A stretch of 64,000 nt of DNA from Nemertoderma westbladi. Lineage: Eukaryota; Animalia; Xenacoelomorpha. Of the stretch, positions 543-57,864 are shown piece by piece. The first letter of the stretch is position 1. Every line of letters begins with the position of its first letter. Under the pieces are notes generated by a model. It saw nothing but the letters and a program-made list of their open reading frames with translations. It had not been told where the DNA came from and ran no database searches. The stretch spans positions 1-64,000 of the forward strand of contig JAUCBJ010008954.1 in NCBI GenBank assembly GCA_032718475.1, given 5' to 3'. The translations under genes and the position numbers were made by a program.

Positions 543-1509
543 CACCACAATGGTGAATCAATGACCCACATTGTTGTATAATTGACCCACAATGGTGTCA
601 TTGACCCACAATGTTGTATAATTGACCCAAAATGTTGTATAATTGACCCACAATGTTGTATAATTGACCCACAATGGTATCATTGACCCACAATGGTATC
701 ATTGACCCACAATGGTATCATTGACCCACATTGTTGTATAATTGACCCACATGGTTGTATAATTGACCCACATGGTTGTATAATTGACCCACATTGTTGT
801 ATAATTGACCCACATTGTTGTATAATTGACCCACAATGTTGTATAATTGACCCACAATGGTATCATTGACCCACAATGATATCATTGACCCACAATGGTA
901 TCATTGACCCACATTGTTGTATAATTGACCCACATGGTTGTATAATTGACCCACATTGTTGTATAATTGACCCACATTTGTGTATAATTGAATGGTGTAT
1001 AATTGAAACACCATAGTGTATGATTGACCCACAATGGTGAATAATTGACCCACAATTATGTATAATTGACCGACAAGGGTGTATAATTGACCCACACTGT
1101 TGTATAATTGACCCATAGTGGTGTATAATTGGCCCACAATGTGTATAATTGATCCACTTGACTCACAATGGTGTATAATTGACCCACAATGGTGTATAAT
1201 TGACCCAGTGTGTATAATTGACCCACTTGACCCACAGTGGTGTATAATTGACCCACAATGGTGTATAATTTACCCACAATGGTATATCAATGACCCACAT
1301 TGTTGTATAATTACCCCACATTGTTGTATAATTGACCCACAATGGTGTATCAATGACCCACATTGTTGTATAATTGACCCACAATGGTGTATCATTGACC
1401 CACATTGTTGTATAATTGACCCACAATGGTGTATCACTGACCCACATTGTTGTATAATTGACCCACAATGGTGTATCAATGACCCACAATGGTGTATAAT
1501 TGACCCACA
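543..1509. repeat. 21-bp satellite (TTGACCCACA[AT]TG[GT]TGTATAA), left part
   Basis: Direct tandem periodicity of 21 bp, with some 19-bp variants. The same family resumes at 10519. Confidence 0.97.
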
Positions 1510-1678
1510 AAAAAAAGCACGCAAACAGTCGGCCGAAGCCGGAGGCGACCCGAAGGCTCCTCTTTCGATAGCTGCTACCCGAGGGTAGGGGTGGGCGCTA
1601 CTCCTATCCCAAGATTTGCTCCCAGTTATTTAACTGGTACTCATTTTATCGACCCCAGTGGATGAAAGGCTGAGTGGA
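1509..1678 (-). mobile_element. tRNA-derived SINE, body and 3' tail (split by the LTR element)
   Basis: Minus strand reads TCCAC-TCAGCCTTTCATCCACTGGGGTCGATAAAATGAGTACCAG...CCTTCGGGTCGCC...T-run. It joins the tRNA-like head at 10444-10517 once the LTR element and one GTGGA are removed. The central motif resembles the Meta/MESC SINE core as I recall it (unverified). Confidence 0.75.
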
Positions 1679-2219
1679 TATTAGCTTATTCAATCCCGCC
1701 AACACCCCATAAAGTTATAAGCCGATAAGCAATATTGGGAGCCACGAGATTGGGCAATTAACCAACTCGTGCCATCCCAATAAGAGTGGGAAGGAAGCAC
1801 ACAATAGAGGGTCAGGGGCCAAACCCCTAACCCAGAGAGAACAGGTGGAGTGAACGGGAATACTCCACGGGGCGCCAACAAGGGTATTAACCAATCAGAG
1901 GGGGGAAAGGCATCGATTGAGTAGCAGTAAGGCCACCGTGCAATATAACCAATAACCTATTAATCAGTGATTCAGTTATCTCAGTGTAGCAGTGCTAGCG
2001 TAGGTTAGTAGTCAATTAGTTTAGTTAGGGGATCACGGGACTTTAGTTACCGTATCCCGCCTTGTACACATTATATCTATATCTATATCCTATGCCCTAT
2101 TATTATTATACACCGAACTTCAGAACTCAGTTACTTTATTTCACCCTTATACACGGCGGGGACGCGTGGACTAAATTACCACATCGGATAAATCGGGATC
2201 CCTCCTGGATCCCGTCACA
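1679..2219 (+). repeat. 5' LTR (541 bp)
   Basis: TA(TG)...CA. Matches 9925-10443 except ~3 substitutions and a 22-bp indel. TATAA at 1944 and TCAGT initiator-like motifs at 1964-1985. Confidence 0.95.
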
Positions 2220-2299
2220 GTAACTAAATCCGAGCTGCCGCCCCAGTTAAACTCTAAGAACTACACTGCTAGCTAGCCGAACTCCACCGACCAGACGAG

Positions 2300-3685
2300 A
2301 TGAGTGAATCGGGCGAGACACCGACGCGGACCCCGGACGAAGATCAAACGATCCGCGAGGCCGCGACCAAGCGATACAGGCCCACGACGCCAGAGCCATC
2401 GATAACGGGCGAACCGGAAGTCCAGAACGAGGAGAGTCTGGAACCCGAAGTCGAGCCAAGAGAGAAAGGGAGCGAGATGTAGGGAGATGGAGACGAGTCG
2501 ACACGAGACGGAGAACGGCGCGCCGACGTCGCCGGCCAGCTACCGGCCGAGGGCGACGAGCGGCCCACCGAAACGGCGATGGCGGGGCCGACGGTGCGAC
2601 GCCGGACGCGAAGAGACGGAGGAGAGATCGGTACCGATGTCGCCGGCCAGCTACAGGCCGAGGGCGACGGACGGCCCACCGGAACGGCGACGGTGGAGCC
2701 GCCGGTACGACGTCGAACCCGGAGGGACGGAGGAAAAGTCGGCGAGGAGGACGTCAGGGTCTCTGAGCGACTTCGACGAGCCTACATCGCGGCCCGGAGG
2801 ATGCTAAAGGATGCCAAAAAGGAAGGGGCGAAGGTAGACGAGGTGAGACTGAGAAAGCGACTAGGTGAGTCGGATAGACACTTTAATTATCTAATACGTT
2901 TTGGGCAGAGAGAACTAGCCGAAACGAGAGCACATGAGATTGCCGGGGAACTGTTTGAACTATGGGAATGTGGGAGTATGGAACCTAGCGTAGCGTCAGT
3001 GTACATAGGGCCATACTTGGTCGATGCCCGGGGAGTAAAACCAGTAGGTTGGAGGGGACTCGAAGGGGGCGAATCCGAGGTTAACCCCGAGGATTCGGCC
3101 TCGTCGGTCGGAGAAAGCTCCGGGAAGCGGGGGAAAGTCAGTAGGTCGGGAAGGCGGGGGAAATCCGTCGTAACCGATAAGTCTGTTACATCCTCCGCGA
3201 AAGAAAGAGCGGTGAGAGAAATAGGTGCCGCATATCGTCTCAGCATGGCAGAGCAAGGTCATAGAGAAATGAAGGAATGGCTAGAGGAAGGGAGAGTGCG
3301 GTTAGAGAGGGAAACGGCATTGCTTAAAGAAACCGGAGAGAGGGCCGAAAGGGCTTTGAAAAGCCTAAGGGAGTATGATGAGATAGAGGAAAGGGAGTGT
3401 AGGGAGCGTGAGGCGAGAGAGGAAAGGGAACGCAAGGAGCGTGAGGCAAGGGAGGAAAGGGAACGCAAGGAGCGTGAGGCGGAACGCAAGGAGCGTGAGG
3501 CGAGAGAGGAAAGGGAACGCAAGGAGCGTGAGGCAAGGGAGGAAAGGGAACGCAAGGAGCGTGAGGCGGAACGCAAGGAGCGTGAGGCAAGGGAGGAAAA
3601 GGAACGCAAGGAGCGCGAAGTGAGACGAAGGGAGAGCATTAAGAGTGCTGCAGAGTCGGCCATCAGGGACACCCAGGAGCAATAG
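2300..3685 (+). pseudogene. gag: gag N-terminal remnant (charged coiled-coil region)
   Basis: ORFs 2300-2482 and 2579-3685 share a frame, separated by a TAG at 2480. EREAREERERK repeats at ~3400-3625. The Gag core and zinc knuckles are missing. Confidence 0.7.
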
Positions 3686-4324
3686 AGAAATACGGTTGAG
3701 GAGATACTGGAAACAGGGCGCGAGGTTCGCGACATCCTGAAAGGATCCGGCTTCAACCTGACCAAATTCCAATCCAGTTCAGAAGAATTTATCAAGGCAA
3801 TAGAGGACAAGAAACCAGAATCGACCATGGACAACCCTACAACAGCCAAAGGACAGGACATGGCGAATAAGAGAACACAATCTCAGCAAAAGGCGTTGGG
3901 AATCGTGTGGGATAGAGGAACAGACGAACTGAAGTATCAGCTGAGCCAGGAGGGCGCAGACACCCATACGAAGAGGGGTTATGTATCGTATATAGCAAGG
4001 ATATACGATCCCCTAGGCCTAGCATCCCCATTACTAGTCACGGGGAAACAGATACTCAAGAGAGTATATAAATTGAAGGATGAGTGGGACGTAGAGGTAC
4101 CAGAGGACATCAAGAAACAGTGGAGCAAATGGACAGGAGACTTGGAGAGGATGGGAACATACAACATGCCGCGAGTGTATTTTCCGGACGGGAACATGAC
4201 GAATCTGGACCTACATATGTTCTCCGACGCGTCGTTAGAGGCATACGGAGCGGCACTCTATTTAGTACAACGAGAGGGGGCTCACAAGCCCAGACTAGCC
4301 TTTAGCGAAGAGCAGCTTTTTTAG
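3686..4324 (+). pseudogene. pol: pol remnant: end of RT plus Pao Peptidase_A17/RNase H N-terminal region
   Basis: Same frame as gag. Starts RNTVEEILETGREVRDILKGSGFNLTKFQSS, the segment just after YVDD in BEL RTs, then LGIVWD, YDPLG, HMFSDAS. Protease and RT catalytic core are absent. Confidence 0.88.
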
Positions 4325-4367
4325 GAGCTGCTTTAGACGAGCGAAGAAGGAACGAGCCGTACAGGAG

Positions 4368-5327
4368 ATGGCGCCACTACCGGCGAGTAGGGTAAGACAG
4401 CACGACCCGCCATTTACGCATTGCGGTGTGGACATGTTCGGGCCGATAAAGATCAAGGTGATGCGACACACGGAGAAACGCTACGGTATTATCTTCGTAT
4501 GCAACAATACGCGGGCGGTAGGGATAGAACTCGCCCAAGATGCAACCGCATCAGCATTCATTAACGCCTTAGAAAGGTTTAGGGACCGCAAAGGTGGGAC
4601 GATCGCAGTGATATACAGCGACAACGGCACCAACTTTGTGGGCGCAGAGAGTGAGATGGCAGAGGCCTTGGACATCTTGGAGGGAGAAGAAGTCAGGGCA
4701 GCCATGAGGAGACGACAAGTAAAGTGGGAGAGAAGGACGCCGTATGCACCACATACACTAGGATGCGTCGAGAGACTGGTGGGCAGTTCAAAGCGTCTAA
4801 TGACGAAGTTAATGAACACCCACATGGTCACTGAGGACGTTTTACGGACAGTACTTGCGAAGTGCAAGGGGATCATTAATAGCAGACCGCTATATCCGGA
4901 GAATGATGACCCTGAGTCGTTAGACGTGTTGACGCCTAGCCATTTTCTGATGGAAAGGCCAGCGACCATCGATATGCGGGGTGTAGACCCAGATGACATA
5001 CACTCCCGCCAAAGTTGGAAAGTCGCTAAAGCAATAAGCGCAGAGTATTGGAGGAGGTGGGTAGAAGAATACCTACCCACGCTCCATAAGCGAAGCAAGT
5101 GGAGGAAACCGAATCGGGAGTTAAAAGTAGGAGATCTCGTAATCGTTACGGATGATACTATCATCAACAACCAGTGGCGGTTGGCGAGAGTTGTAGGCAC
5201 CTACTCCGACGAGGACGGAAGAGTCCGATCGGTAGAAGTGCGGATAGGTGGAAAGATAGGTGCGAAAGACAGAAAAACCTACAGGAGAGCAGTAGGTAAA
5301 TGCTGTCTTCTAGAAGGGGCACCTTAA
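4368..5327 (+). CDS. pol: BEL/Pao integrase core plus C-terminal DUF5641-like region (pol remnant)
   Basis: DDE residues in GVDMFGP, SDNGTNF and GCVERLV, then INSRPL, LTPSHFL, W..EYL and D.DGRVRSVEV. Frameshifted relative to upstream pol; the HHCC finger is largely deleted. Confidence 0.92.
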   Translation: MAPLPASRVRQHDPPFTHCGVDMFGPIKIKVMRHTEKRYGIIFVCNNTRAVGIELAQDATASAFINALERFRDRKGGTIAVIYSDNGTNFVGAESEMAEALDILEGEEVRAAMRRRQVKWERRTPYAPHTLGCVERLVGSSKRLMTKLMNTHMVTEDVLRTVLAKCKGIINSRPLYPENDDPESLDVLTPSHFLMERPATIDMRGVDPDDIHSRQSWKVAKAISAEYWRRWVEEYLPTLHKRSKWRKPNRELKVGDLVIVTDDTIINNQWRLARVVGTYSDEDGRVRSVEVRIGGKIGAKDRKTYRRAVGKCCLLEGAP

Positions 5328-5436
5328 ATTGGAGTTAGAGTGGAGTTTAGTCGTCCAAGTTTTGGACTGAGGGGGGTGGGATTGAGGGCGAGACGCCCTT
5401 CCCACACAAATAAAAATAAAAATAAAATAAAAATAA

Positions 5437-6225
5437 TAGTTAGTTAGTTAGTAGGTACGTAGTACCTAGAGTTAGTTAGTTAGTTAGTAGGTACGTAGTG
5501 CCTAGAGTTAGAGAGTTAGTAGGTACGTAGTACCTAGAGTTAGTTAGTTAGTAGGTACGTAGTGCCTAGAGTTAGAGAGTTAGTAGGTACGTAGTGCCTA
5601 GAGTTAGTTAGTTAGTAGGTACGTAGTACCTAGTTAGAGTTAGAGGGTACGTAGTACCAATAGTTAGTTAGAGTTAGTAGGTACGTAGTACCTAGTTAGA
5701 GTTAGAGTTAGTAGGTACGTAGTACCTAGTTAGAGTTAGAGGGTACGTAGTACCGATAGTTAGAGAGTTAGAGGGTACGTAGTACCGTTAGTTAGAGTTA
5801 GAGTTAGAGGGTACGTAGTACCAATAGTTAGTTAGAGTTAGTAGGTACGTAGTACCTAGTTAGAGTTAGAGTTAGTAGGTACGTAGTACCTAGTTAGAGT
5901 TAGAGTTAGAGGGTACGTAGTACCAATAGTTAGTTAGAGTTAGTAGGTATGTAGTACCTAGTTAGAGTTAGAGTTAGTAGGTACGTAGTACCTAGTTAGA
6001 GTTAGAGTTAGAGGGTACGTAGTACCGATAGTTAGAGAGTTAATAGGTACGTAGTACCTAGTTAGAGTTAGAGGGTACGTAGTACCAATAGTTAGTTAGA
6101 GTTAGTAGGTACGTAGTACCTAGTTAGAGTTAGTAGGTACGTAGTACCTAGTTAGAGTTAGAGTTAGTAGGTACGTAGTACCTAGTTAGAGTTAGAGTTA
6201 GGGGGTACGTAGTACCATTAGTTAG
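5437..6225 (+). repeat. Array of 24 GGTAC-GTA-GTACC hairpin units separated by variable (TTAG/TTAGAG)n spacers
   Basis: Counted by eye. Period ~28-36 bp. Lies between pol and the extra ORF inside the LTR element. Confidence 0.92.
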
Positions 6226-6723
6226 AGAGAGAGAGTGAGAGGTAAAAGGGGTAAATAGGATATAGATATTAGTTAGCAGTAAGTAGAGTTAGTAGCGAGA
6301 GGGGGGCATATGAGTACAGCTGGATAAATCGTGTGGCCACACGACGCATACTGCTGTACTACATGGGCCCACAGAGTAGGCCAGAATATGGATCAGAGAA
6401 TAGAATAAACCCATAGGCAGTAGTAGGTAGTAGGACAGTAGAATCAAAGCAAACAAACAAATAAATAGAATAGGGCTAAAATCGTAAAATAGTGGCAACA
6501 CAAGGAAAGTCGTTCTAGAACATAATAAAAGTAACGGACGGAAATTGTAAATTAGGCTGATTTACTAGCTCCGAAATTAATTAGGTTAAATTTAGCTTGA
6601 AAGGCGCAATTAAGTAGAAAGTAGGCCATTATCGAACTGTACGAAACATCTTAAATACTTCACTCATCTGTATTGCGCCTTGGTAAGGTACCACCCTGCA
6701 GGTGAGCGAGTGTAGTGTTCGGA

Positions 6724-9258
6724 ATGGCGAGTAAGCTGATCAGGAAGAGAAAGGCGGAGTCAGGAGGAAAAGAAATATTGGTGGATTTCACCGAAAGACA
6801 CCCGGAAGAGAAGACGAGAGGATACTACGAGAGGTTGGAAAGGGGTCACGCGGCACGAGCGCTGCAGGATCACTTCCGGGAGGCGCACGAACAGCGGTTG
6901 GTCGGGACCTACGGGACCCCGTCGCTGGACAACGCGATCTTCCAACACTTCCACTACGTGGTGAAAGGGGACGAGGCGAAGTTCGGGATTCCGAAGTATC
7001 CGAGGGAATCGCCGAGGAAGGACTGGAAAAGATTCATAGAGTCCGTCAACAGAGGAGGATATATGATCCTAGATGACGAGGGAACCGTGGAAGACGAAGC
7101 GGGTTCGAGACGAGGAACGGCAGGGTCGGCCAGGACCATACTCCTACATTTGGCCACGCCAAATGGGGACATCTTCTTATTCGACCTAGGGACGTATGGG
7201 AAGAAGGACGGGCCGAAATTAGACCGATTGCCGAAAGCGGTACAAGTGTTAGTAAGAGAGAAGTCGACGACGAAAGTGGGATCGGCGATTCGCGAGGACG
7301 CGGAGAGGATCATCGGTCTGGACGCCACCAACCTCCTGGATATGCAGAAAGTCTTTATGGCTATGACGGCACCGGATGGATTGGGGGTAGTCGAAAACAC
7401 AGGCCAATGCGGGGCTGTGGCGATGGGCCAATTATTGGGGCTGGTATGCCACAAACCGATGGACTGGGGAAAGTTTAGGGAAGAATACGGGGCAGAACTA
7501 GCGAACTCGCTGAAGTGGGGAGCGAGACCGGGAAAGCAGGAGGTATATCAGTTTCGCAGAGGAGCGATAAAGGTATATCAGAAGCGATATATCCTGCAGG
7601 AGGACTGGATGATGATAAGTTTGCTTAACTTATTCATGACCGTAGTTATCGAAAGGGAACCAGGGGCATTTCTGTTATCGGGATCACCCCTAAGCTACAG
7701 GAGAGCCTTTAAGACGGCCTTTGACGGTCTGGTAGACCACCCGGGGCTGAAGGGCGAGTCGGTGTACTACAACAGCCGACATCTGGTAGACGGGGAGACA
7801 GATACACCGTATCAGAGATGGGAGCAGCTAGAGGCGGACAGACGAGAAGCAAAGCGACTGGAAGAAGTCGCTAGACGGGAGAGGATAGAAGCAGAGGAGA
7901 GGGAAGAGGAGGCCAGGGCACAGAGTTACGGCTTCGAGGAACAGGCGGGCCTAGACGAACTTCATTGGACTTCGTCAGGGAGTTCGGGGGAGTCTCTAGG
8001 GCGAGAATTGGGATGGATGGTGGGATCGCCGAAACAGTCGACGTCGGGGTTGCAAACGATGCCCATACCAGCGGGCGCCGAGGGCGACCAACCGCCAAGG
8101 AAGTTAAGGGAGCTAGAGGGATGGAGAGCTACGGGCGAGAGTCAAGGCGGGAAGGGACATAGTGGATCCATCGGGATACCGGGATTGGAGACACTACCAG
8201 AAGAGGAGGACGGCGACGACGAGTTCGGAGAGATGCCGCCCATCGAGAGGATAGGCCACTCGGACACAGACTGGGTTGGCGGAAGGGTGGTGACAGCCAG
8301 TGGGGCGAGGGCCTTCTGGAACAGATCCAGCAAGCGGACCTGGGTGCACGAGGAGCCGGCGATGGATTTCGCGGGGAGCACCATCAGGTTGGGCGAGCAA
8401 CCGGGAACGGCACCACGGATAGTATTCGGGGAGACGATGCCCGAGAGGGGCGGAGAGATAGACGTAAACAGGGAGAGCAACGTAGAGAAGTTCGCCTACC
8501 AGCGACTCCATAGACCGCGGAGATCGCTTGGGACGAAAGACGAGGTGGGACGGGAGACATTGGTACTCGGCTGCGACTACTGTGGGAGACAGACCCATCA
8601 GGAAAGCAGCTGCCTATACCGGTTCCAACGGGGAACCTTTTGTCTCTACTGTAGAGAACCAAGCCACAGGATGGGGGCGTGTCCACGGTTGCATAACCGA
8701 TGTCCAAAGTGCCACTTTCGGGGACACTACGGGCGCGAGTGCGACTGGATGAGCGACGAGGAGAAGTTCACAAGATTCGAGGAGTGGGCCGACGTCGGGG
8801 CCATGACGCGCCAGCGCATGAAGGCCCAAGAGTTCAAGTGGGGTTTCTTCCTCATAAACCAGGAGACCCACATGGAAATCATAAAGCGAAGGTTACCGTT
8901 TACCTATCAAGAGGTAGCAACGGCGGCATCGTTCGCCGGAGTTATGAACACGCAACGGTACCTGGACAGGTGGACACCAGAGAACCGGAGGGAGTTTAGG
9001 GATTTCTTGGCGGAACACGTACCAAAGGCAATGAAAATGATCCTATGGGACGCCACACGAGGGAGACAACCAGGCCATTCTGAGGGGCCACCGGCGAAGC
9101 GGTATCGGGCATTAATAACACCAGCGCCCAAGGAGCCAACGACCGGGATCAGCAAGGAAGTGGCGGCGAAGGTCCGGAAGCAGAAAGCGGATGATGCCAG
9201 AGGAACGGTGATAACCAAGAAACGGGCCAGGGAAGAGGACGTGAGGAGGAACAGATAA
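6724..9258 (+). CDS. Extra retrotransposon ORF (844 aa): DEDDy (WRN/EXD/Mut-7-like) 3'-5' exonuclease, coiled coil and 3 CCHC zinc knuckles
   Basis: Uninterrupted ORF. ExoI-like ILDDEG (7066-7083), LLHLATPNGDIFLFDL, ExoII-like KVGSAIREDAERI, NLLDMQ and ExoIII-like YQKRYILQED. Three CX2CX4HX4C motifs at 8572-8742. Confidence 0.8.
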   Translation: MASKLIRKRKAESGGKEILVDFTERHPEEKTRGYYERLERGHAARALQDHFREAHEQRLVGTYGTPSLDNAIFQHFHYVVKGDEAKFGIPKYPRESPRKDWKRFIESVNRGGYMILDDEGTVEDEAGSRRGTAGSARTILLHLATPNGDIFLFDLGTYGKKDGPKLDRLPKAVQVLVREKSTTKVGSAIREDAERIIGLDATNLLDMQKVFMAMTAPDGLGVVENTGQCGAVAMGQLLGLVCHKPMDWGKFREEYGAELANSLKWGARPGKQEVYQFRRGAIKVYQKRYILQEDWMMISLLNLFMTVVIEREPGAFLLSGSPLSYRRAFKTAFDGLVDHPGLKGESVYYNSRHLVDGETDTPYQRWEQLEADRREAKRLEEVARRERIEAEEREEEARAQSYGFEEQAGLDELHWTSSGSSGESLGRELGWMVGSPKQSTSGLQTMPIPAGAEGDQPPRKLRELEGWRATGESQGGKGHSGSIGIPGLETLPEEEDGDDEFGEMPPIERIGHSDTDWVGGRVVTASGARAFWNRSSKRTWVHEEPAMDFAGSTIRLGEQPGTAPRIVFGETMPERGGEIDVNRESNVEKFAYQRLHRPRRSLGTKDEVGRETLVLGCDYCGRQTHQESSCLYRFQRGTFCLYCREPSHRMGACPRLHNRCPKCHFRGHYGRECDWMSDEEKFTRFEEWADVGAMTRQRMKAQEFKWGFFLINQETHMEIIKRRLPFTYQEVATAASFAGVMNTQRYLDRWTPENRREFRDFLAEHVPKAMKMILWDATRGRQPGHSEGPPAKRYRALITPAPKEPTTGISKEVAAKVRKQKADDARGTVITKKRAREEDVRRNR

Positions 9259-9915
9259 GTTCCCAGATACGAGGGAGTGAGACTGAGACTGGGACGTGGT
9301 GCGCCTGGAAGGCGCCGCATGGAACGTACGAACTATTAAATACAAATTTAATTAATGCAAATAATCATATAAGTGCAATTTGTATGTACGTACGTAGTAA
9401 TTAGCAGTAAAATACACGATCGGAGTAAGTACTATAGTCATACAACCTTTCTCAACTAGCTAGTGGGACTGTGACAATTTCACACTTCTTGAGTGCGACG
9501 GCACGAGAGGGGGGGGAGATTCGTCAGAAGGGAAGAGACAGTCGAAGTGAGGTTGAGGGACGGAGTAATAGTGCGGAGTGCGGAGAGAGTGCCGATGCAA
9601 TTCCAGTGTGGGGGGGGGAGAATAAGAGGCTGAGTAAGGGACGAGGAGGTCCGAATGTGAGAGAGTTAGGGCGAGAGTGAAGGTGAGATAGGGCGAAAAT
9701 GTTGGGGAAACAAAAGTTGCGTGGGAGGTGAGCGCGATCGGCCCGACATGAGACGCCAGGCACACAGGGTAGCGTCATCATACCCATAGGGGGCGGCCTG
9801 GAAAGCCGACCCCGAGAGAAAAGAATTCCACCCCACACCCGATACTAGATCGGGATCCAGCGGGATTGTAACGCACTTTTAGGTTGATGCTATCTTCTTA
9901 CCGGGAAGATAGCAT

Positions 9916-9924
9916 GGGGGGGAG
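9916..9924 (+). other. Polypurine tract
   Basis: GGGGGGGAG immediately before the TG of the 3' LTR. Confidence 0.85.
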
Positions 9925-10443
9925 TGTTAGCTTATTCAATCCCGCCAACACCCTATAAAGTTATAAGCCGATAAGCAATATTGGGAGCCACGAGATTGGG
10001 CAATTAACCAACTCGTGCCATCCCAATAAGAGTGGGAAGGAAGCACACAATAGAGGGTCAGGGGCCAAACCCCTAACCCAGAGAGAACAGGTGGAGTGAA
10101 CGGGAATACTCCACGGGGCGCCAACAAGGGTATTAACCAATCAGAGGGGGGAAAGGCATCGATTGAGTAGCAGTAAGGCCACCGTGCAATATAACCAATA
10201 ACCTATTAATCAGTGATTCAGTTATCTCAGTGTAGCAGTGCTAGCGTAGGTTAGTAGTCAATTAGTTTAGTTAGGGGATCACGGGACTTTAGTTACCGTA
10301 TCCCGCCTTGTACACATTATATCTATATCTATATCCTATGCCCTATTATTATTATACACCGAACTTCAGAACTCAGTTACTTTATTTCACCCTTATACAC
10401 GGCGGGGACGTGTGGACTAAATTACCACATGGATCCCGTCACA
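9925..10443 (+). repeat. 3' LTR (519 bp)
   Basis: TG...CA, followed by the TSD GTGGA. Confidence 0.95.
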
Positions 10444-10517
10444 GTGGACCCTGGCGGGGCTAAACCTACAACCAATAGATTGCAGGCCCGGCGCTCAACC
10501 AACTGAGCTACCCCGCC
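10444..10517 (-). mobile_element. tRNA-derived SINE head
   Basis: Minus strand GGCGGGGTAGCTCAGTTGGTTGAGCG...TGCAA...GGTTTAGCCCC: intact A-box, degenerate B-box, no proper cloverleaf. Continues into the SINE body at 1673. Confidence 0.75.
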
Positions 10518-10518
10518 T

Positions 10519-12205
10519 TTGACCCACAATGGTGTATCAATGACCCGCATTGTTGTATAATTGACCCACAATGGTGTATCAATGACCCACATTGTTGTAT
10601 AATTGACCCACAATGGTGTATCAATGACCCACATTGTTGTATAATTGACCCACAATGGTGTATCAATGACCCACAATGGTGTATAATTGACTCACAATGG
10701 TGTATCATTGACCCACATTGTTGTATAATTAACCCACATTGGTGTATCAATGACCCACAATGGAGTATAATTGACACACAATGGTTTATCATTGACCCAC
10801 GATGGTGTATCAATGACCCACAATGGTGTCATTGACCCACAATGGTGTCATTGACCCAGAATGGTGTATCAATGACCCACATTGTTTTATAATTTACCCA
10901 CAATGGTGCATCAATGACCCACAATGGTTTATAATTGACCCACAATGGTGTATCAATCACCCACATTGCTGTATAATTGACCCACATTGTTGTATAATTG
11001 ACCCACAATGGTGTATCATTGACCCACATTGTTGTATAATTGACCCACATTGTTGTATAATTGACCCACAATGGTGTATCATTGACCCACATTGTTGTAT
11101 AATTGACCCACAATGGTGTATCATTGACCCACATTGTTGTATAATTGACCCACAATGTTGTATCAATGACCCACATTGTTGTATAATTGACCCACATTGT
11201 TGTATAATTGACCCACATTGTTGTATCATTGACCCACATTGTTGTATCATTGACCCACAATGGTGTATCATTGACCCACATTGTTGTATAATTGACCCCC
11301 ATTGTTGTATAATTGACCCACAATGGTGTATCAATGACCCACAATGGTGTATCAATGACCCACAATGGTGTATCATTGACCCACATTGTTGTATAATTGA
11401 CCCACATTGTTGTATAATTGACCCACATTGTTGTATAATTGACCCACATTGTTGTATAATTGACCCACATTGTTGTATAATTGACCCACAATGTTGTATA
11501 ATTGACCCACAATGTTGTATAATTGACCCACATTGTTGTATAATTGACCCACATTGTCGTATCATTGACCCAAATGGTTGTATAATTGACCCACATTATT
11601 TTTGTATCATTGACCCACATTGTTGTATCATTGACCCACATTGTTGTATAATTGACCCACATTGTTGTATAATTGACCCACAATGGTTTCATTGACCCAC
11701 AATGATGTATCAATGAACCACATTATTGTATAATTGATCCATAATGGTGTCATTTACCCACAATGGTGTATCATTGACCAACATTGTTGTTATCATTGAC
11801 CCACAATGGTGTATCATTGACCCACATTGTTGTATAATTGACCCACATTGTTGTATAATTGACACACATTGTTGTATCATTGACCCACAATTGTGTATAA
11901 TTGAATGGTGTATAATTGAAACACCATAGTGTATGATTGACCCACAATGGTGAATAATTGACCCACAATTATGTATAATTGACCGACAAGGGTGTATAAT
12001 TGACCCACACTGTTGTATAATTGACCCACAATGGTGTCATTGACCCACAATGGTGTATCATTGACCCACAATGGTGTATCATTGACCCACATTGTTGTTA
12101 TCATTGACCCACAATGGTGTATCATTGACCCACATTGTTGTATAATTGACCCACAGTGGTGTATCATTGACCCACATTGTTTTATAATTGAGCCACAATG
12201 GTGCA
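10519..12205. repeat. 21-bp satellite, right part
   Basis: Same unit as 543-1509. A diagnostic variant block (TTGAATGGTGTATAATTGAAACACCATAG) occurs at both ~988 and ~11900. Confidence 0.97.
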
Positions 12206-12720: not shown

Positions 12721-15700
12721 CTATCTAAGAGATGGTTGTGTAGATGGTTGTTTATCAGAATGTTTCAGTATCCAAGTGATTGTTTCCTGTAACATTGACA
12801 ACGAGAAACTATTAGCGATACTCATTAGGGTGTCGAGTCTCTGGAAGAGTTTTCTTCGAGTAAACGTGTTCTCGAAATTCCCGGCACATTGACACCACCG
12901 TTTCATGTTATCCGGTTTAACCCAATTGCATTTGGCGCAGACGAGATCCTGCGTAGCGTAGGCGACGGACAGCCGGTTAACCACCTGGATCAGTCGGGAC
13001 TCCATGACGCCGTCGTCGTAAGGGGTGTCGCACGCGGGGCAGTGCCACCGGGGCGGAGACCCGGATCCCGCACTCGAGATCCCTGGATCCCGACACAGAT
13101 CCACATCGCGACAATAGTTGCAAAACTTACAAATAACATCATTGAGTATGTAAGTCAAACAAGGATCGCGCCATTGGGCCTCCCTGGCGAATTCCTTCAC
13201 TCCGATTAGTTGAAGCAAATTGCGTTTAAGTTTCGCGGCTTGGCAATGGATGTTTGTATCCAACGCAAGGACCCGCACGATCGCTTTAACAAGTTCCAAC
13301 GCGGGATTATTCGGATGTAAGTAATGTCCTGGAGGCTCTGGGAAAACCTTCCAATCCGGACCGCTGTACTTCCGGTTGAGATCGGCGATGATGGCGAAGA
13401 CCTGCTGACTCATGTCGTTGTCCACGAGATCCTGGGAGAACTGGACCACTTTGGGGGTGGCGATAGCGTCGCCTTGGAACTTGAGCTGCGTGTTGGGTAC
13501 GTGACGCACCGCAGGGGTTTGTCCCGGGGCGTGAGAAGATTTCTCCTTCTCGACTTCATAGAAGATCGCCATGATGTAACCCGCGATGACCGCGTTGAAA
13601 CTGTCCTGACAACCGGCCTCGATAGGAAGAAAGTTCTTTATATTCCAGTTCATTACGACCTCTATGTTGTCATCATCAGACTCATGTATATCTTCGTCGA
13701 TACACTCCTCTAGGTTATCAACTCCGATTCTTCCTTTGATTCCGCCGAAGTTGGCGTAGTCCAACCAAAGTAGAAACCGCCACCAACCACTTACGGAAAT
13801 GTTAATCCCATGGAAGATTGTCTTGGCGGTGATCGAGCTGATAAGATAGCGGATGTAGGAAACAGAATCAGATAAATGTCGCTTACGGGTGAACGCGAGG
13901 ATCCTGTTGAAATTCGCGTAAACAACAACAGCCCCGAGGTTGTGAAACTCAGAGATTAAAAGCATAAAGAGTTTCTTCATTAGATCGTTAACCATCCGCA
14001 TTAAGGCGGGGTCGTGGAACAGAGACTCGGAGTTCTGTAACCACCGGTAAAAATTGATGATCTGTTCGTCGGCGTATTCGTTTCGGTGCTGCGTTACGTC
14101 ACGCAACCACGCGTGAACGACACCGCGGAGCACGCGGAAAGCTCCGGCGCAGCGGGAAGTCTCGTCGAAGGCGGTGCCGTCTGTGCCGACGCCAACGCCG
14201 CCGTCGCACAGCAACTCCTCCATGGAGTGCTGCGCCCCCGGGGCCCCGTCGAAGTTCAACGCCATGGAGCCGCCGCCCTCAAGAGCATTTATATTGTGGG
14301 CCTGGAGGAGGGTGTTGATGGCAAGGTTGGAGAGACTCAACTCGACCGACACTGTGGCGTAGCAACCCGGTTGATTGACCTCGACGCAGCCCGGAGCGTC
14401 GGCGCTGGTGTCAACCCGCGCGTCATCCACCTCCTTGCCGCCCAAATCTGGGCGTCGCCCGGGCGCCGCCCACCACACGTGGTTCTGGTCGGTTAGTTCG
14501 CGGGCATACGCCACATCGCAGCCCAGCAGATGGGCATCGTCCGTTAGGTTGCCAACAGGTACATTGAAGTATCGTGATTGGCTGAGTAGACGGGCATAGA
14601 TGCGATTGTACGATAGGTAGCCAATCATAACGCGCCGAGAAACAATTCGCTGCCAATCCAACACGTTAAAAGATAAATCATCTTTGATAAAAATCCGAGT
14701 GGAAGGGAAGTCTCTTAACAAAGCGATGTTTGAGTAAAGGTTCGAAGTAGTTGAAGTGGTTTGGTAGATAATCATGGTAGGGCCGTGGCTTTCTTGTTGG
14801 TAAGTTTGAAGGAACCGTTGCACAGCCGAGTGAAGTTTCTTTAAATCGTTGACGACATCGGCAGTGAATACGTGGTCTCCTAGAGGAAGGTCGTCAACCT
14901 CTTCTTGATTAAGAGACTCGAATAGTTTACCACGTTCCTCGTTGTAAGTCGACACGAGATTGGGGAGGTTGTTTGCCGATGATGGGTCTAGAAGGAACAG
15001 TGAACCTTTCTTGAGTTTGGGTAGGAAGACTGCGATAATTTGTCTGTTGCTGGATTCGTGTTGGTAGAGGTAGACATGGTTGATAGAGCCGGGAGCGAGG
15101 TAGCTGGTGCCGGAACCTCGTTTACGAGCTAGTTGGTTCAGCTGGAAGGAGGTTGAGTGGCGCGATCGTTTAGCCGCGTCCGCCGTCACCTGGCAACGGG
15201 CTCCCAATACAGCGACGGCACGGAAGAGCAGCGGTACCTGGGTCTCGTAGATCCCCTCGATCTCCGGGGCCGAGATGTCGGCGTTGAGTTCGTTGACGTA
15301 CTGCACGAAGAGACCCTCGGGTACCGAGTACTCGTACAGGTTGTGGACTTGGTTGGAGCGAGGGAGGACCTTATTGGCCCGTCTCCAACACGCGGAGCCC
15401 CCCGAATGATCCTCCGCCTTGGGCGTCTTCTGGTTGACGTAGAAGATCCTGGGGATGGTGACAGTGACGGTGTGGAGACCATCGCCGATAACCACCCAGA
15501 GTTGAACATCCCCCAGAACTTCCGTATCCCGGATTTCAACGACCTGCCATTGACTGGTTAGTAGCCCCGCCTTGCTACGCAGCAGGAAACCCTGCATCCC
15601 CATGGCAACTGCATCAGGAGCAGCCAATCGTCGTCGCTTAACCCCCTGTTGTTTGCTCGCCATCTGGTATTTCCATTTCTTTTTGTGCCATTGCAACCAC

Positions 15701-15885
15701 TTGGCCATATCATCCTTGTTGCTTCCCATCCTTGGTGGCTCGCCCCACCTCTCCTTGAAGGTACCAGCACCCACCGCTTCTACGTCTTCTGTGTCTCGGG
15801 TCTTCCGTTTGGTAGACACTCGTGGTGTCGCCTTCACCCGGGGTGTCATCGACATACCGTGAATGTCCTCAATATCGTTGGAAAC
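12721..15885 (-). CDS. POLE: DNA polymerase epsilon catalytic subunit, exon 6 (C-terminal inactive polymerase domain, CysA/CysB)
   Basis: WLQWHKKKW, IPRIFYVN, EGIYETQVP, PDLGGKE, FYRWL, CKFC...CPAC, CAKC...CQC. Acceptor TAG at 15888-15886; stop TAG. Confidence 0.96.
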   Translation of the reverse strand, partial: VSNDIEDIHGMSMTPRVKATPRVSTKRKTRDTEDVEAVGAGTFKERWGEPPRMGSNKDDMAKWLQWHKKKWKYQMASKQQGVKRRRLAAPDAVAMGMQGFLLRSKAGLLTSQWQVVEIRDTEVLGDVQLWVVIGDGLHTVTVTIPRIFYVNQKTPKAEDHSGGSACWRRANKVLPRSNQVHNLYEYSVPEGLFVQYVNELNADISAPEIEGIYETQVPLLFRAVAVLGARCQVTADAAKRSRHSTSFQLNQLARKRGSGTSYLAPGSINHVYLYQHESSNRQIIAVFLPKLKKGSLFLLDPSSANNLPNLVSTYNEERGKLFESLNQEEVDDLPLGDHVFTADVVNDLKKLHSAVQRFLQTYQQESHGPTMIIYQTTSTTSNLYSNIALLRDFPSTRIFIKDDLSFNVLDWQRIVSRRVMIGYLSYNRIYARLLSQSRYFNVPVGNLTDDAHLLGCDVAYARELTDQNHVWWAAPGRRPDLGGKEVDDARVDTSADAPGCVEVNQPGCYATVSVELSLSNLAINTLLQAHNINALEGGGSMALNFDGAPGAQHSMEELLCDGGVGVGTDGTAFDETSRCAGAFRVLRGVVHAWLRDVTQHRNEYADEQIINFYRWLQNSESLFHDPALMRMVNDLMKKLFMLLISEFHNLGAVVVYANFNRILAFTRKRHLSDSVSYIRYLISSITAKTIFHGINISVSGWWRFLLWLDYANFGGIKGRIGVDNLEECIDEDIHESDDDNIEVVMNWNIKNFLPIEAGCQDSFNAVIAGYIMAIFYEVEKEKSSHAPGQTPAVRHVPNTQLKFQGDAIATPKVVQFSQDLVDNDMSQQVFAIIADLNRKYSGPDWKVFPEPPGHYLHPNNPALELVKAIVRVLALDTNIHCQAAKLKRNLLQLIGVKEFAREAQWRDPCLTYILNDVICKFCNYCRDVDLCRDPGISSAGSGSPPRWHCPACDTPYDDGVMESRLIQVVNRLSVAYATQDLVCAKCNWVKPDNMKRWCQCAGNFENTFTRRKLFQRLDTLMSIANSFSLSMLQETITWILKHSDKQPSTQPSLR

Positions 15886-16116
15886 CTACAAGAGGGAGTA
15901 ACGTATGTGGAATTAATTAATGGATAGTGGAAGTAGTGTACGGATGATTCGTATATTTAATGTGAAAAAACTATTGAAAATAAGGCAATTTAAGAAAATA
16001 AGGAATTTATGCGAATTTCTGCAACAATCGTGTAAATATCGCAATGGGGATTGTATTTTTCACCGGGATCCCGGTTTTTCGGGATCGGGATCCCGTTTAA
16101 ACCATGACTACCATAG

Positions 16117-17333
16117 AGATAGACCCATTCTACGTCCGCACAAGACCATTATCTGCCATCTAAGACCGCACTAGACCAATTATCTGCCACCTAAGACCGC
16201 ACTAGACCCATTATCTGCCATCTAAGACCGCACTAGACCCATTATCTGCCACCTAAGACCGCACTAGACCCATTAACTGTCACCTAAGACCGCACTAGAC
16301 CCATTATCTGCCACCTAAGACCGCACTAGACCCATTATCTGTCACCTAAGACCGCACTAGACCCATTATCTGCCACCTAAGACCGCACTAGACCCATTAT
16401 CCATTATCTGCCACCTAAGACCGCACTAGACCCATTATCTGCCATCTAAGACCGCACTAGACCCATTATCTGCCACCTAAGACCGCACTAGACCCATTAT
16501 CTGCCACCTAAGACCGCACTTGACCCATTATCCATTATCTGCCACCTAAGACCGCACTAGACCCATTATCTGCCACCTAAGACCGCACTTGACCCATTAT
16601 CCATTATCTGCCACCTAAGGCCGCACTAGACCCATTATCTGCCACCTAAGACCGCACTTGACCCATTATCCATTATCTGCCACCTAAGGCCGCACTAGAC
16701 CCAGTATCTACCACCTAAGGCCGCACTAGACCCATTATCCATTATCTGCCATGTAAGGCCGTACTAGACCCATTATCTGCCACCTAAGGCCGCACTAGAC
16801 CCATCATCCATTATCTGCCACCTAAGGCCGTACTAGACCCATTATCTGCCACCTAAGGCCGTACTAGACCCATTATCTGCCACCTAAGGCCGCACTAGAC
16901 CCATTATCTGCCACCTAAGGCCGCACTAGACCCATCATCCATTATCTGCCACCTAAGGCCGTACTAGACCCATTATCTGCCACCTAAGGCCGTACTAGAC
17001 CCATTATCTGCCACCTAAGGCCGCACTAGACCCATTATCTGCCACCTAAGGCCGCACTAGACCCATCATCCATTATCTGCCACCTAAGGCCGTACTAGAC
17101 CCATTATCTGCCACCTAAGGCCGTACTAGACCCATTATCTGCCACCTAAGGCCGCACTAGACCCATTATCTGCCACCTAAGACCGCACTAGACCCATTAT
17201 CTGTCACCTAAGACCGCACTAGACCCATTATCTGCCACCTAAGGCCGTACTAGACCCATTATCTGCCACCTAAGGCCGTACTAGACCCATTATCTGCCAC
17301 CTAAGGCCGCACTTGACCCATTATCTGCCACCC
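16117..17333. repeat. 31-bp minisatellite in POLE intron 5
   Basis: Unit CTAAG[AG]CCGCACTAGACCCATTATCTGCCAC, with 38-bp variants. Abuts the exon 5 donor. Confidence 0.96.
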
Positions 17334-17335
17334 AC

Positions 17336-17557
17336 CTGTAAAGGTTTGAATATTTCCGTGATTCTCTTCTGTTTCAACACATCGTCCTTCTCCAGCTGTT
17401 TCCGGTGCAGCCAGTCGGGGTGCGGCACTCTCGGCACCGGATTGGACACCGACTGCAACGCGGCTGGGATGGTGATGATCTTTTGGATAGCGCTGCCGAG
17501 TCGCTCCACATAGTAACCCCAATCGAGAATATCTCGAATGTCCATCGACGTAACAAC
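17336..17557 (-). CDS. POLE: POLE exon 5
   Basis: [30 protein letters not shown]...HPDWL. CAG acceptor, GTGGGT donor, phase 0/0. Confidence 0.95.
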
Positions 17558-18410
17558 CTGCAATTATTTCATGGTAAATAATGAAATATAGTTCACAACA
17601 AAGTGTCAGGACGAAATATTTTTACAATTTAGAAAGCGTGCCATGTCGAGATTCATCATAAGGCATTTTGATTTGTGAGAATTACTTAATAATTGGGGAT
17701 CAGGTGGAAGTGGTTCTATCACTATCAGTATCACCTGTGCCATTATCTTTTCAGCTTTGGTCAGTACTGTATTGGTGTAGACAATACTCGGTTTCTTCTT
17801 TATAAGTTACATTATTTATTTTTTCGGAAAAATGTAGAACTTTTTTACGAATTCTCGAGGTATTTCATTTACCGAGCGCCAACGAGGTTAATAAAGGGTC
17901 GAGAGAATATTGAAAAATCAACTTTTACGTTTTTTTCCCATGTAATACGTAATTTCATTCTTAAATTGGTACTTTTTGTTGCTCAATTCTTTAATTAAAA
18001 TATAGAACGATATAGTGTTACAAAATAAATTGAACTGTAGTATTTTACTATATTGCTTCCATATTTACTCCTATTCAAATTACTCTACTCTTCAACTCTC
18101 GATGCTGCCTTAACTCAACGTTAAATAATTTAGTGTTCTCGAATATTTATTACGTAACTAGAGAGCCGCTTAACAACCGTACGAGACACGAGTACGCCGC
18201 GCAGACACTAAAGTTGCAATAACTTTTGAGTGTGTGAATGGATTTTGCTCAAATTACGTGCAAACCTTTTCTCCTTCCATGTTCTTTTAACACAATGTAA
18301 TAAAAAAGTAACATTTAATGCAACCATAGTAACCATACTAGTTTCATTTCTTCTCATGATTCAGGGCCGTACATTAGGGCGAAAGATTAACAATTTAATA
18401 ATAAAATAAT

Positions 18411-21355: not shown

Positions 21356-21370
21356 TTAATTAATAAGAAC

Positions 21371-21876
21371 CTGCATTTTCAACCATTTCTTCAGGTAATG
21401 TCGCTTAACCCCCGGTTCTGCCATGAATATCGCCACAGGTATCGCTCGTTCAGTAACCGGGGCTCCTTCGGGTTTACGCGATATTATGTAGCGACAACTG
21501 AGTCCTTTATCCTTGACCATGGCGTCCCCTAGGAACTCCGCTAGTCTCTTAGCCGTCGATATCGACGTAGACTTCTGGGCGCCGTAATCCTCTAGTTTCT
21601 GACTCATTGTTCGGTTCTCGGAGATCAAATCAAACAATTCGTCGTCAGGCATGTCCATGGCCTTGCTGTAGAGGACGTCGAGCCAATAGTTGGCCACCTT
21701 GGCGACGTGTTGGTAACATTCCGAGAGGTCTGAACCCTCGAGGAATCTATCGAACACCGAACTCTGGAATATCTTTATGAGTCCCAACTCGCCACGTCGT
21801 TTAATCTCGAAACCTTTGAGTTCGGCTATCGATTTATCGAAGTTGAACACGGCGTAACGTTTCTTTAACTTCTTAC
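21371..21876 (-). CDS. POLE: POLE exon 4
   Basis: [49 protein letters not shown]. Phase-1 acceptor; the donor (GTTCTT) is weak but restores frame. Confidence 0.93.
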
Positions 21877-22059
21877 CTGAGAGAATTAATAATGTAAAAA
21901 GTCAAAATATTTCCAGATAGTTTATTGAATATTCAAAGAAAGTTGAAGATTTTCAAGTAGAATTGGCCGAGGAGTTACGTGGCTTGATGCAATAAATATG
22001 GGCATTCTTTGTTTGTTTACAGTATTTAAACACACATTATTGCCCTTTGAATGGGAGAA

Positions 22060-22280
22060 TCTTTTAGGCTCGTTAAGCCAAGGAATGCCTGTTCACCACC
22101 ATTGGTGATCTTCCACAGTAAACCCTGTTTCACAAGTTGCCTTGGTTCCCATTTATCGACCACTGAAGGATGAAAACCAGGGTTGGGCTAGGCTTTTAAA
22201 GCACTGTGCCCAGACAGTGCTGCCCCATCTAGGGATCGAACCAGTGCATCCTGATTGGAAGCCCAGGATTGTCATAATTG
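22060..22280 (-). mobile_element. Degenerate SINE remnant
   Basis: CCCATTTATCGACC...GAAGGATGAAA resembles the core of the SINE at 1640-1670. B-box-like GGTTCGATCCC on the minus strand near 22235. Confidence 0.45.
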
Positions 22281-22660
22281 CCCTTTTAAAAGTATAAATA
22301 AAACTTTATTTCATATGCGACCAATTGCCGGTCAAAGTGCGCCACTATCTGGGGTGACGGGTGTGAAATTGGAAAGTTGGGGGTCAAGGGCGCAAAATCA
22401 CCGCAAACACCAAATTGTGTGTTTAGAGTTAGTGGGTTTGAAATAAGGGAAAGGAGCAGGTTATAGTGGCAGTGTTTTCTAACCAAAACAATAAACTATA
22501 ATTTATTTCACTTGCTGTCAATGTGGGCCACTATCTGGAAAGTGGAACTAATATTTCTGTACACCTGACTATCATTAACCCAATGGAAAATCATATATTT
22601 ATTGGTTAAAAATTTATAAGATATAATAAATTTGTCACTTAGTAACATATATTTATAAAC

Positions 22661-29368: not shown

Positions 29369-29384
29369 TTTTTAGATTGGCTAG

Positions 29385-36053: not shown

Positions 36054-36126
36054 CGAGCGTGACAGAAGTCGAACCTGGGATCTCCTGCTCCGTAGGCAGA
36101 CGCGTTATCCACTGCGCCACACACCC
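36054..36126 (-). tRNA. tRNA-Arg(ACG) gene or pseudogene
   Basis: 73-nt cloverleaf: GGGTGTG/CACGCTC acceptor stem, TCTGC-CT ACG GA-GCAGG anticodon arm, GGTTCGAC T-loop, downstream T5. The T-stem is mismatched. Confidence 0.65.

Positions 36127-54689: not shown

Positions 54690-57864
<3,175 letters not shown>

What the first reader, a model, noticed from the sequence alone, without database searches (positions are those of the whole stretch)
1679..10443. Candidate new retroelement system: BEL/Pao element combining a non-tRNA PBS, a hairpin array and an exonuclease-knuckle ORF
Seen: three unusual parts in one young element, namely no TGG-type PBS, a 24-hairpin array, and an intact DEDDy exonuclease + 3xCCHC ORF in the slot where env would sit. 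Established: canonical BEL/Pao elements encode gag-pol with or without env and prime with tRNA. DEDDy extra ORFs are known to me from bdelloid rotifer Ty3/Gypsy-type and Penelope-like elements, not from BEL/Pao. Inference: the ~4.5-kb post-pol cassette is a functional RNA-processing module for primer maturation, RNA packaging or anti-piRNA/siRNA defence.
Basis: partly seen in the sequence, partly recalled or inferred. Interest (0 to 1): 0.85.

Follow-up and report, generated by a model that had tools for sequence, protein, structure and literature searches.

The report
BEL/Pao retrotransposons carrying exonuclease-knuckle genes
A young but internally deleted BEL/Pao jumping gene in an animal genome carries an intact extra gene, predicted to encode an RNA-trimming enzyme with three zinc knuckles and found behind the polymerase gene in dozens of other BEL/Pao elements, while its hairpin array and its likely self-priming start site are not shared by those relatives, so the three oddities do not form one system.

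Summary
All three features are real, but they are not one system. The element (1679-10443; LTRs 99.4% alike, 5-bp target duplication) is a BEL/Pao copy that has lost most of gag-pol. Its 844-aa extra ORF is intact and under purifying selection among family copies (15 of 17 listed variants synonymous). Profile and predicted fold make it a DEDDy exonuclease (Nibbler/RNase D type; D-E-D-Y-E) with three CCHC knuckles. A metagenome scan found the same gene directly behind a BEL/Pao integrase in 33 contigs; there it co-diverges with integrase (rho 0.83) and stays open in a subclade without catalytic residues. All 19 relatives with a readable 5' end have a normal TGG primer site, and none of the 33 has an array there. 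This family's primer site instead pairs 9 of 9 with its own LTR (shuffle p 0.02-0.03; the only listed variant keeps a G-U pair), so Tf1-like self-priming is likely but unproven. Nine literature searches found such ORFs only in rotifer elements; Repbase and GyDB could not be checked. Verdict: new variant of a known kind, a widespread BEL/Pao accessory gene whose function, most likely RNA binding and trimming against host small-RNA silencing, is inferred.

The parts
1674..1678 (+). Left target-site duplication GTGGA (right copy 10444-10448)
   Evidence: contigs joining the two flanks without the element, table 5
1679..2219 (+). 5' LTR, 541 nt, begins TA (3' LTR begins TG), ends CA
   Evidence: LTR end supported by loose ends at 2219-2221
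2042..2050 (+). LTR 9-mer complementary to the primer-site position; candidate self-primer (copy in 3' LTR at 10288-10296)
   Evidence: no substitution listed at 1990-2062 among family copies
2194..2214 (+). 8-bp hairpin at the end of U5
   Evidence: pair probability 0.98-0.99 in all 8 folds; no variant listed inside it
2220..2232 (+). Non-TGG primer-binding-site position, directly against the LTR
   Evidence: one listed variant, at 2224, compatible with a G-U pair; kept by copies that lack the leader behind it
2300..3685 (+). 5' remnant of gag, low complexity, with in-frame stops; no Pfam gag domain or knuckle
3686..4324 (+). pol remnant: end of RT plus first part of the Pao-type RNase H region (Peptidase_A17, 114 of 162 positions)
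   Evidence: E 1e-29
4330..5327 (+). Integrase core and C-terminal DUF5641, zinc finger missing
5437..6227 (+). Tandem array, 28-36 nt units, 24 copies of a GTA-loop hairpin; length differs among copies
   Evidence: (table 5)
6724..9258 (+). Extra ORF (ORF3), 844 aa, intact
   Evidence: 15 of 17 listed variants synonymous
6901..7773 (+). DEDDy-type 3'-5' exonuclease domain (about aa 60-350; D117, E119, D192, Y289, E293)
8572..8742 (+). Three CCHC zinc knuckles (aa 617-673), followed by a family-specific helical extension
9916..9924 (+). Polypurine tract
9925..10443 (+). 3' LTR, 519 nt
10452..10517 (-). tRNA-like head of the SINE-like repeat into which the element inserted (its body continues left of 1679)
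   Evidence: 22 bits, below the Rfam cut-off of 29; many variant copies of the flank

Best explanation
This is a recently inserted, internally deleted BEL/Pao copy that carries an intact accessory gene shared with many other BEL/Pao elements, predicted to encode an RNA-binding 3'-5' exonuclease that likely helps the element's RNA get past host small-RNA silencing, while the likely self-priming site and the hairpin array are separate traits of this one family. Shown: the element's anatomy, the gene family, its position behind integrase, purifying selection, co-divergence with pol in relatives, and the absence of array and non-tRNA primer site in those relatives. Inferred mechanism: the copy is mobilised in trans by intact family members. 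ORF3 is made from its own, probably spliced, message. Its three knuckles hold single-stranded RNA and present 3' ends to the exonuclease, as in trypanosome RNase D, so it trims or sequesters silencing small RNAs (about 0.4 for this target against the rivals). Minus-strand synthesis starts from the element's own LTR 9-mer annealed beside the U5 hairpin (about 0.6). The array is a slippage-grown minisatellite with no required role (about 0.65).
For: Family of exonuclease-plus-knuckle proteins (window scores 100 bits on a profile built without it, best of 200 shuffles 1.7). Profile hits EXD2 E 1e-11, WRN, Egalitarian and trypanosome RNase D. Fold matches Nibbler Z 13.4, rmsd 3.7 over 203 residues, tied with Rrp6, RNase D and others. 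47 of 120 motif loci carry the domain, 33 of them behind a BEL integrase, including 29 of the 35 with at least 1 kb upstream; 10 of 10 upstream pol-bearing ORFs chosen for the check have Peptidase_A17 and DUF5641. Integrase and exonuclease identities correlate, rho 0.83, 0 of 2000 permutations, 22 loci. 15 of 17 listed ORF3 variants synonymous against 33% expected. 19 of 19 readable relatives have TGG; 0 of 33 have an array there. Four acidic residues in 31 of 54 relatives; a clade of 13 has lost them, and several of its members keep long open frames, as non-catalytic RNA-binding DEDDy proteins do (passages of 10.1101/2025.08.03.668247). Self-priming.
Against: No activity, substrate or expression data; the small-RNA target rests on analogy only. 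Glu replaces the last Asp in this copy (shared with 4 of 54 relatives). The perfect LTR match is 9 bp, one short of the 10-bp criterion of PMC6317226; it is only moderately beyond chance (p 0.017 and 0.027), competes with another partner in the LTR (primer pairing probability 0.29-0.88 by assumed start), and the transcript start is unknown. The relatives are distant (integrase at most 38% identical), so close kin of this family could still share all three parts. 6 of 35 loci with room show no integrase upstream. Whether the deletions are private to this copy was not resolved.
Confidence: 0.65

Rival explanations
1. ORF3 is mainly a packaging or transport adaptor: a second nucleocapsid-like protein whose knuckles and exonuclease fold bind the genomic RNA, with catalysis secondary.
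For: A whole subclade lacks the catalytic residues yet keeps the gene; the knuckle region is the best-conserved part (12 invariant columns, 11 of them in the knuckles); Egalitarian, whose catalytic residues are dispensable for RNA localisation, is among the top matches.
Against: 31 of 54 relatives keep four acidic residues over very large distances; no shared RNA structure was found beside the gene.
Confidence: 0.25
2. One reading: in this family the exonuclease matures the self-primer, for example by trimming an RNA 3' end back to the 9-bp duplex, and the array is its loading platform.
For: The complementary 9-mer also lies in the 3' LTR (10288-10296), so 3' trimming could expose it; the three features coexist in a multicopy family.
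Against: 19 of 19 readable ORF3 carriers use TGG sites and 0 of 33 have an array, so the gene long predates or is independent of both; unreviewed scan notes report self-priming BEL/Pao elements without mention of such a gene (leads only).
Confidence: 0.1
3. ORF3 acts on DNA, polishing or proofreading cDNA 3' ends before integration.
For: WRN, EXD2 and polymerase proofreading domains score close to the RNases.
Against: CCHC knuckles with a DEDD domain serve RNA binding in trypanosome RNase D (passages of PMC7797062); loss of catalysis in an apparently active subclade.
Confidence: 0.1
4. The primer is a host RNA (a tRNA fragment or another small RNA) and the LTR match is a by-product of the repeated AGTTA motifs in this LTR.
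For: Match only 9 bp, p 0.02-0.03; partial matches recur near 1970, 2019 and 2125 (sequence); half-tRNA priming exists in copia lineages.
Against: The match starts at the first base after the LTR; both partners show no disruptive variant while 2063-2145 varies freely; seven TGG relatives score only 4-5 on the same measure.
Confidence: 0.3

Closest known systems
DEDDy ORF3 of bdelloid rotifer LTR retrotransposons Juno and Vesta, and of Athena/Terminon elements (PMC5408684, passages read)
   Same: RNase D-like DEDDy gene in the env position behind pol; catalytic residues kept with a D-to-E change; function untested; 3'-end processing or silencing roles proposed.
   Different: Here the host elements are BEL/Pao; the protein adds three CCHC knuckles and a conserved extension (the paper has no occurrence of 'CCHC'); the gene co-diverges with pol across a wide clade and has a catalytically dead branch. 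Common origin with the rotifer ORFs was not tested.
Belpaoviridae / Semotivirus (ICTV profile PMC8742986, whole text read)
   Same: LTRs, PPT, 8.8 kb, Pao-type RNase H region and integrase; third gene slot behind pol.
   Different: Third gene is an enzyme, not env; no tRNA-type primer site in this family; most relatives show a TGGCGCCCAAC site (tRNA-Lys type, label recalled) rather than the Arg or Gly listed.
Trypanosoma brucei RNase D, TbRND (PDB 7c42/7c45; PMC7797062, passages read)
   Same: DEDD exonuclease followed by an array of CCHC knuckles that bind RNA and support trimming; top Foldseek hit and matched in both domains by the profile.
   Different: Cellular mitochondrial enzyme with four knuckles close to the nuclease; here three knuckles after about 250 disordered residues; 15-18% identity and a Z score tied with other DEDDy proteins, so likely convergent architecture.
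Self-primed Tf1/sushi-group chromoviruses (criterion from PMC6317226, passages read; Tf1 mechanism recalled)
   Same: No tRNA site; sequence directly after the LTR is complementary to the LTR; stable U5 structure beside it.
   Different: BEL/Pao rather than Ty3/gypsy; 9 bp perfect (12 with one bulge) rather than 10 or more; not shown to lie at the RNA 5' end.
Nibbler, Egalitarian, Exd1 (animal DEDDy proteins of small-RNA and RNA-transport pathways)
   Same: Same fold (Z 12.1-13.4); includes members that work as RNA binders without catalysis.
   Different: Host genes, 11-15% identical; no knuckle triplet; no evidence that ORF3 derives from any one of them.

Membership tests
BEL/Pao (Belpaoviridae) | Direct LTRs with TG...CA ends, target duplication and PPT | tested here: met
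   the 5' LTR begins TA, one substitution from the 3' LTR
BEL/Pao (Belpaoviridae) | Pao-type pol domains in RT-RNase H-integrase order | tested here: met
   Peptidase_A17 E 1e-29 then rve and DUF5641; the 120 listed integrase hits nearly all carry DUF5641 and mostly Peptidase_A17
BEL/Pao (Belpaoviridae) | Complete gag-pol with knuckles, protease and RT core (autonomous element) | tested here: not met
   missing in this copy; present in relatives. Filed as a deleted derivative
BEL/Pao (Belpaoviridae) | 18-nt primer site matching a tRNA 3' end (ICTV description) | tested here: not met
   no TGG. Descriptive rather than defining; the assignment rests on pol homology
DEDDy 3'-5' exonucleases | DnaQ-like fold | tested here: met
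   predicted model, Z 13.4 rmsd 3.7 over 203 residues to Nibbler; 36 chains at Z 8 or more; profile E 1e-11 to EXD2
DEDDy 3'-5' exonucleases | Four acidic residues plus Tyr in ExoI-III | tested here: met
   D117, E119, D192, Y289, E293; last position Glu instead of Asp
DEDDy 3'-5' exonucleases | Metal-dependent 3'-5' activity | not testable with these tools
   needs biochemistry
Rotifer Juno/Vesta/Athena DEDDy ORF3 pool | Carried by Juno/Vesta or Penelope-like elements | tested here: not met
   carriers are BEL/Pao
Rotifer Juno/Vesta/Athena DEDDy ORF3 pool | Groups with the rotifer ORFs in a tree | not tested
   rotifer sequences were not among those fetched
Tf1/sushi-type self-priming elements | No tRNA primer site | tested here: met
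   half-tRNA priming not excluded, host tRNA set unavailable
Tf1/sushi-type self-priming elements | At least 10 bp complementary to the LTR, starting 0-5 nt after it | tested here: inconclusive
   9 bp perfect from position +1, 12 with one bulge; p 0.017-0.027
Tf1/sushi-type self-priming elements | Primer is the 5' end of the element's RNA, released by cleavage | not testable with these tools
   no raw RNA reads offered
Tf1/sushi-type self-priming elements | Chromovirus (Ty3/gypsy) lineage | tested here: not met
   pol is BEL/Pao; works like, is not a member

The most novel reading that the evidence does not exclude
A broad lineage of animal BEL/Pao retrotransposons encodes its own antagonist of piRNA/siRNA silencing, a Nibbler-like trimming enzyme with an RNA-gripping knuckle triplet, which survives as a non-catalytic RNA trap in one branch and which in this family sits in an element that has also dropped tRNA priming.
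Probability: 0.3. Interest if true: 0.8.

Novelty: new variant of a known kind. Interest (0 to 1): 0.55.

Why it matters
Exonuclease ORFs in LTR retrotransposons were described from bdelloid rotifers, with no known function. Here one appears as a stable third gene of a wide BEL/Pao lineage, with active-looking and catalytically dead branches, which gives a natural comparison for asking what such genes do and whether animal retrotransposons encode counter-silencing enzymes. Separately, a self-primed BEL/Pao family would extend tRNA-independent priming beyond the gypsy and copia groups in which my searches found it described.

Tried and rejected
No host genome is held, so full-length copies, copy number and the host tRNA set could not be examined. 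Pfam and phmmer-PDB on the single ORF gave nothing; a single-sequence fold failed (pLDDT 30). The word-indexed protein search timed out once and then found nothing with the alignment. Three scans of viral contigs found nothing. No RNA holder listed; one guessed RNA run of another organism has scattered contigs, no evidence on expression. Summed contig depth was not used as copy number. No tRNA gene in the element or in 52 relatives' loci, so an element-encoded tRNA primer is rejected. A splice-built primer, suggested by scan notes, is not supported here: of two donor-like sites in the LTR neither, joined by inspection to the AG at 2045-2046, improves the pairing. Independent capture of ORF3 by this family was suggested by the first integrase tree (window outside the carrier clade), but one clade of window plus carriers was not rejected (AU p 0.46, 52 rows after dropping 3 long and 20 similar rows); left open. 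An energy test of 3' UTR against own primer site beat all 20 shuffles in only 3 of 14 scored loci, one of them by 0.1 kcal/mol. The knuckle region has no convincing atlas family (best 0.85). The host could not be placed beyond 'invertebrate-like animal' (POLE at most 48% identical to hits). Other 8-11 nt complementarities of the leader were treated as chance.
Full report
Observation. The element runs from 1679 to 10443. Its LTRs (1679-2219, 9925-10443) differ by 3 substitutions in 519 nt and a 22-nt indel; a GTGGA duplication flanks it and a PPT precedes the 3' LTR. It sits in a tRNA-headed SINE-like repeat (below Rfam's cut-off) inside a 21-nt minisatellite, about 2.3 kb past the stop codon of the host POLE gene. 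It is BEL/Pao by Peptidase_A17 and DUF5641 and by its integrase relatives. The family is multicopy: 32,251 contigs of one run lay on the stretch and 1,052 variant rows were found.

The extra ORF. 6724-9258 is open for 844 aa with three CX2CX4HX4C knuckles. Pfam sees nothing. A search of 1.84 billion representatives gave 75 hits, mostly through the knuckles. A profile of the N-terminal 330 residues of 13 hits, built without the window's protein, scores it at 100 bits against a best of 1.7 for 200 shuffles. A 27-sequence profile hits EXD2 (E 1e-11), WRN, Egalitarian and trypanosome RNase D in the PDB. The model made with that alignment (mean pLDDT 61; mostly 70-90 in the two domains) matches Nibbler (Z 13.4, rmsd 3.7, 203 residues), tied with Rrp6, RNase D and polymerase proofreading domains (Foldseek agrees). 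The catalytic positions read D117, E119, D192, Y289, E293; 31 of 54 relatives have acidic residues at all four, 4 share this D-E-D-Y-E set, and a clade of 13 has lost them. Of the 40 best-supported of 1,052 variant rows shown, 17 fall in the ORF and 15 are synonymous, against 33% expected for transitions (binomial p 4e-6; rows are not independent); in the gag remnant 7 of 20 are.

Relatives in context. A degenerate pattern for the family's knuckle signature returned 120 loci from 22 of 64 parts of the metagenome collection, about 360 estimated in all; 40 of the 120 came with only about 650 nt. 47 carry the exonuclease domain upstream of the motif; 33 of these have a BEL integrase upstream, including 29 of the 35 with at least 1 kb of room. 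Ten upstream pol-bearing ORFs that I chose all have Peptidase_A17 and DUF5641. Among 22 loci with both domains, integrase and exonuclease identities correlate (rho 0.83, 0 of 2000 permutations), and the two trees share their main clades: the gene is inherited with pol. The window's integrase is closer to other BEL elements (up to 46%) than to these carriers (up to 38%), but one clade of window plus carriers is not rejected (AU p 0.46), so one or several origins is open.

Co-segregation. I inspected 24 loci for a 5' LTR junction; 19 were readable and all 19 have TGG within a few bases of the LTR end, 17 of them TGGCGCC (the script picked a wrong upstream site for L039, whose true site is visible); five (L022, L026, L047, L048, L071) were not readable in what I printed. 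The labels tRNA-Lys and tRNA-Tyr for these sites are recalled. Tandem Repeats Finder on all loci over 1.5 kb found six arrays, none between integrase and ORF3. The limit is distance: no close sister family was available.

The primer site. The nine bases directly after the 5' LTR are the exact complement of LTR 2042-2050, extendable by 3 bp over a bulge. Shuffles that keep dinucleotides or trinucleotides reach 9 in 1.7% and 2.7% of 2000 trials, other positions of the element in 0.8%, and seven TGG relatives reach 4-5. In contigs of three samples no substitution is listed at 1990-2062, in the U5 hairpin 2194-2214, or at 2220-2248 except one at 2224 that turns a G-C pair into G-U, while 2063-2145 has 24 variant rows; copies that lack the leader behind 2229-2254 keep the site. 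Folding gives the pairing a probability of 0.29-0.88 depending on the assumed start, with a rival partner at 2170-2175. This falls one base short of the published screening criterion of 10 bp (PMC6317226, passages) and the RNA start is unknown, so self-priming is likely (about 0.6), not shown. I reached this reading; unreviewed scan notes seen later report the same in other genomes and are leads only. Their splice-built variant does not fit here (and inspection).

The array. 24 cores, 5-7 bp stems with a GTA loop, -5 to -7 kcal/mol each as RNA; the whole array folds preferentially between units. Its length varies among copies and the window holds many other minisatellites. I take it as a family-specific expansion without a shown role.

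Mechanism. The closest working model is trypanosome RNase D, where CCHC knuckles bind RNA and support 3' trimming (PMC7797062, passages). Retention without catalysis in one branch points to RNA binding as the core task, as for Egalitarian and Exd1 (10.1101/2025.08.03.668247, passages); retention of catalysis in most points to useful trimming. Since carriers prime with tRNA, a role common to all is needed. I rank interference with silencing small RNAs first (about 0.4), a packaging or transport adaptor second (0.25), cDNA polishing and primer maturation lower (0.1 each). None is tested.

Literature. Seen: PMC5408684 (passages: DEDDy ORF3 in rotifer Juno, Vesta, Athena; function undemonstrated), PMC8742986 (whole text: gag, pol, env, tRNA site; no exonuclease), PMC3118150 (passages; 'exonuclease' and 'PBS' do not occur in the main text; supplements not read and could bear on novelty), PMC5718144, PMC6338049, PMC3601003, PMC9094657, PMC554778 (passages; nothing on this architecture), PMC1635307 (abstract). 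Searches listed no paper describing a DEDDy ORF or self-priming in BEL/Pao; I read only the papers named. Repbase, GyDB and subscription journals were out of reach. One unreviewed scan note reports Rrp6-like genes in other invertebrate LTR elements.

Verdict. Observation largely right, integrated-system reading not supported. What remains is a widespread, apparently undescribed BEL/Pao accessory gene and a probably self-primed family: new variant of a known kind, interest 0.55.

Noticed in passing
L031, L039, L041, L045, L046, L047, L067, L072, L075, L077, L078, L079; 140-340 nt after the ORF3 stop: 12 of 44 loci with enough 3' sequence share a CCCCACGTTGG-like motif shortly before the PPT. 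It matches the complement of the 18-nt primer site of L046, that is the primer tRNA's own 3' end; six are in the catalytically dead subclade and none in the loci with a complete catalytic set. Possibly a second contact for the primer tRNA; gypsy has a second primer site at its 3' end (abstract of PMC1635307).
   Followed up: partly
L002, L009, L025, L036, L039, L041, L044, L046, L075, L078, L079 with P0042, P0066: A well-supported subclade (SH-aLRT 100) whose exonuclease has lost its catalytic residues, mirrored by a clade in the integrase tree.
   Followed up: partly
L026:5172-10916: A second LTR-bounded copy that lacks integrase but keeps a gag piece and the ORF3 region (one stop inside), like the window's copy in layout.
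   Followed up: partly
L007, L010, L038, L042, L064: ORF3 family members with 1.2-3.3 kb upstream and no BEL gag-pol similarity; other carriers or domesticated copies are possible. L019, L050, L061 and L007 have long N-terminal extensions without a Pfam match.
   Followed up: partly
window 9851-9860: 10-nt perfect complement of the U5 hairpin's 3' arm (2205-2214), 65 nt before the 3' LTR; could join the two ends of the RNA.
   Followed up: no
window 5454-6216: The hairpin loop is GTA closed by C-G, a type recalled as unusually stable in single-stranded DNA (no call supports this); the two stem variants seen both keep a G-U/G-T pair on the plus strand.
   Followed up: partly
window 6660-6705: Acceptor-like and donor-like splice signals just upstream of the ORF3 start codon, read by eye.
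   Followed up: no
window 12721-25520, minus strand: Exons of the host DNA polymerase epsilon gene, one of over 3 kb.
   Followed up: partly
window 545-1510, 10519-12203, 16136-17332, 29383-31464, 38501-43569, 54843-57864, 58325-59151, 61768-63999: At least eight minisatellite arrays of 20-31 nt units; this genome makes such arrays readily, which lowers the surprise of one inside the element.
   Followed up: no
window 36053-36127, minus strand: tRNA-Arg(ACG)-like gene called by ARAGORN.
   Followed up: no
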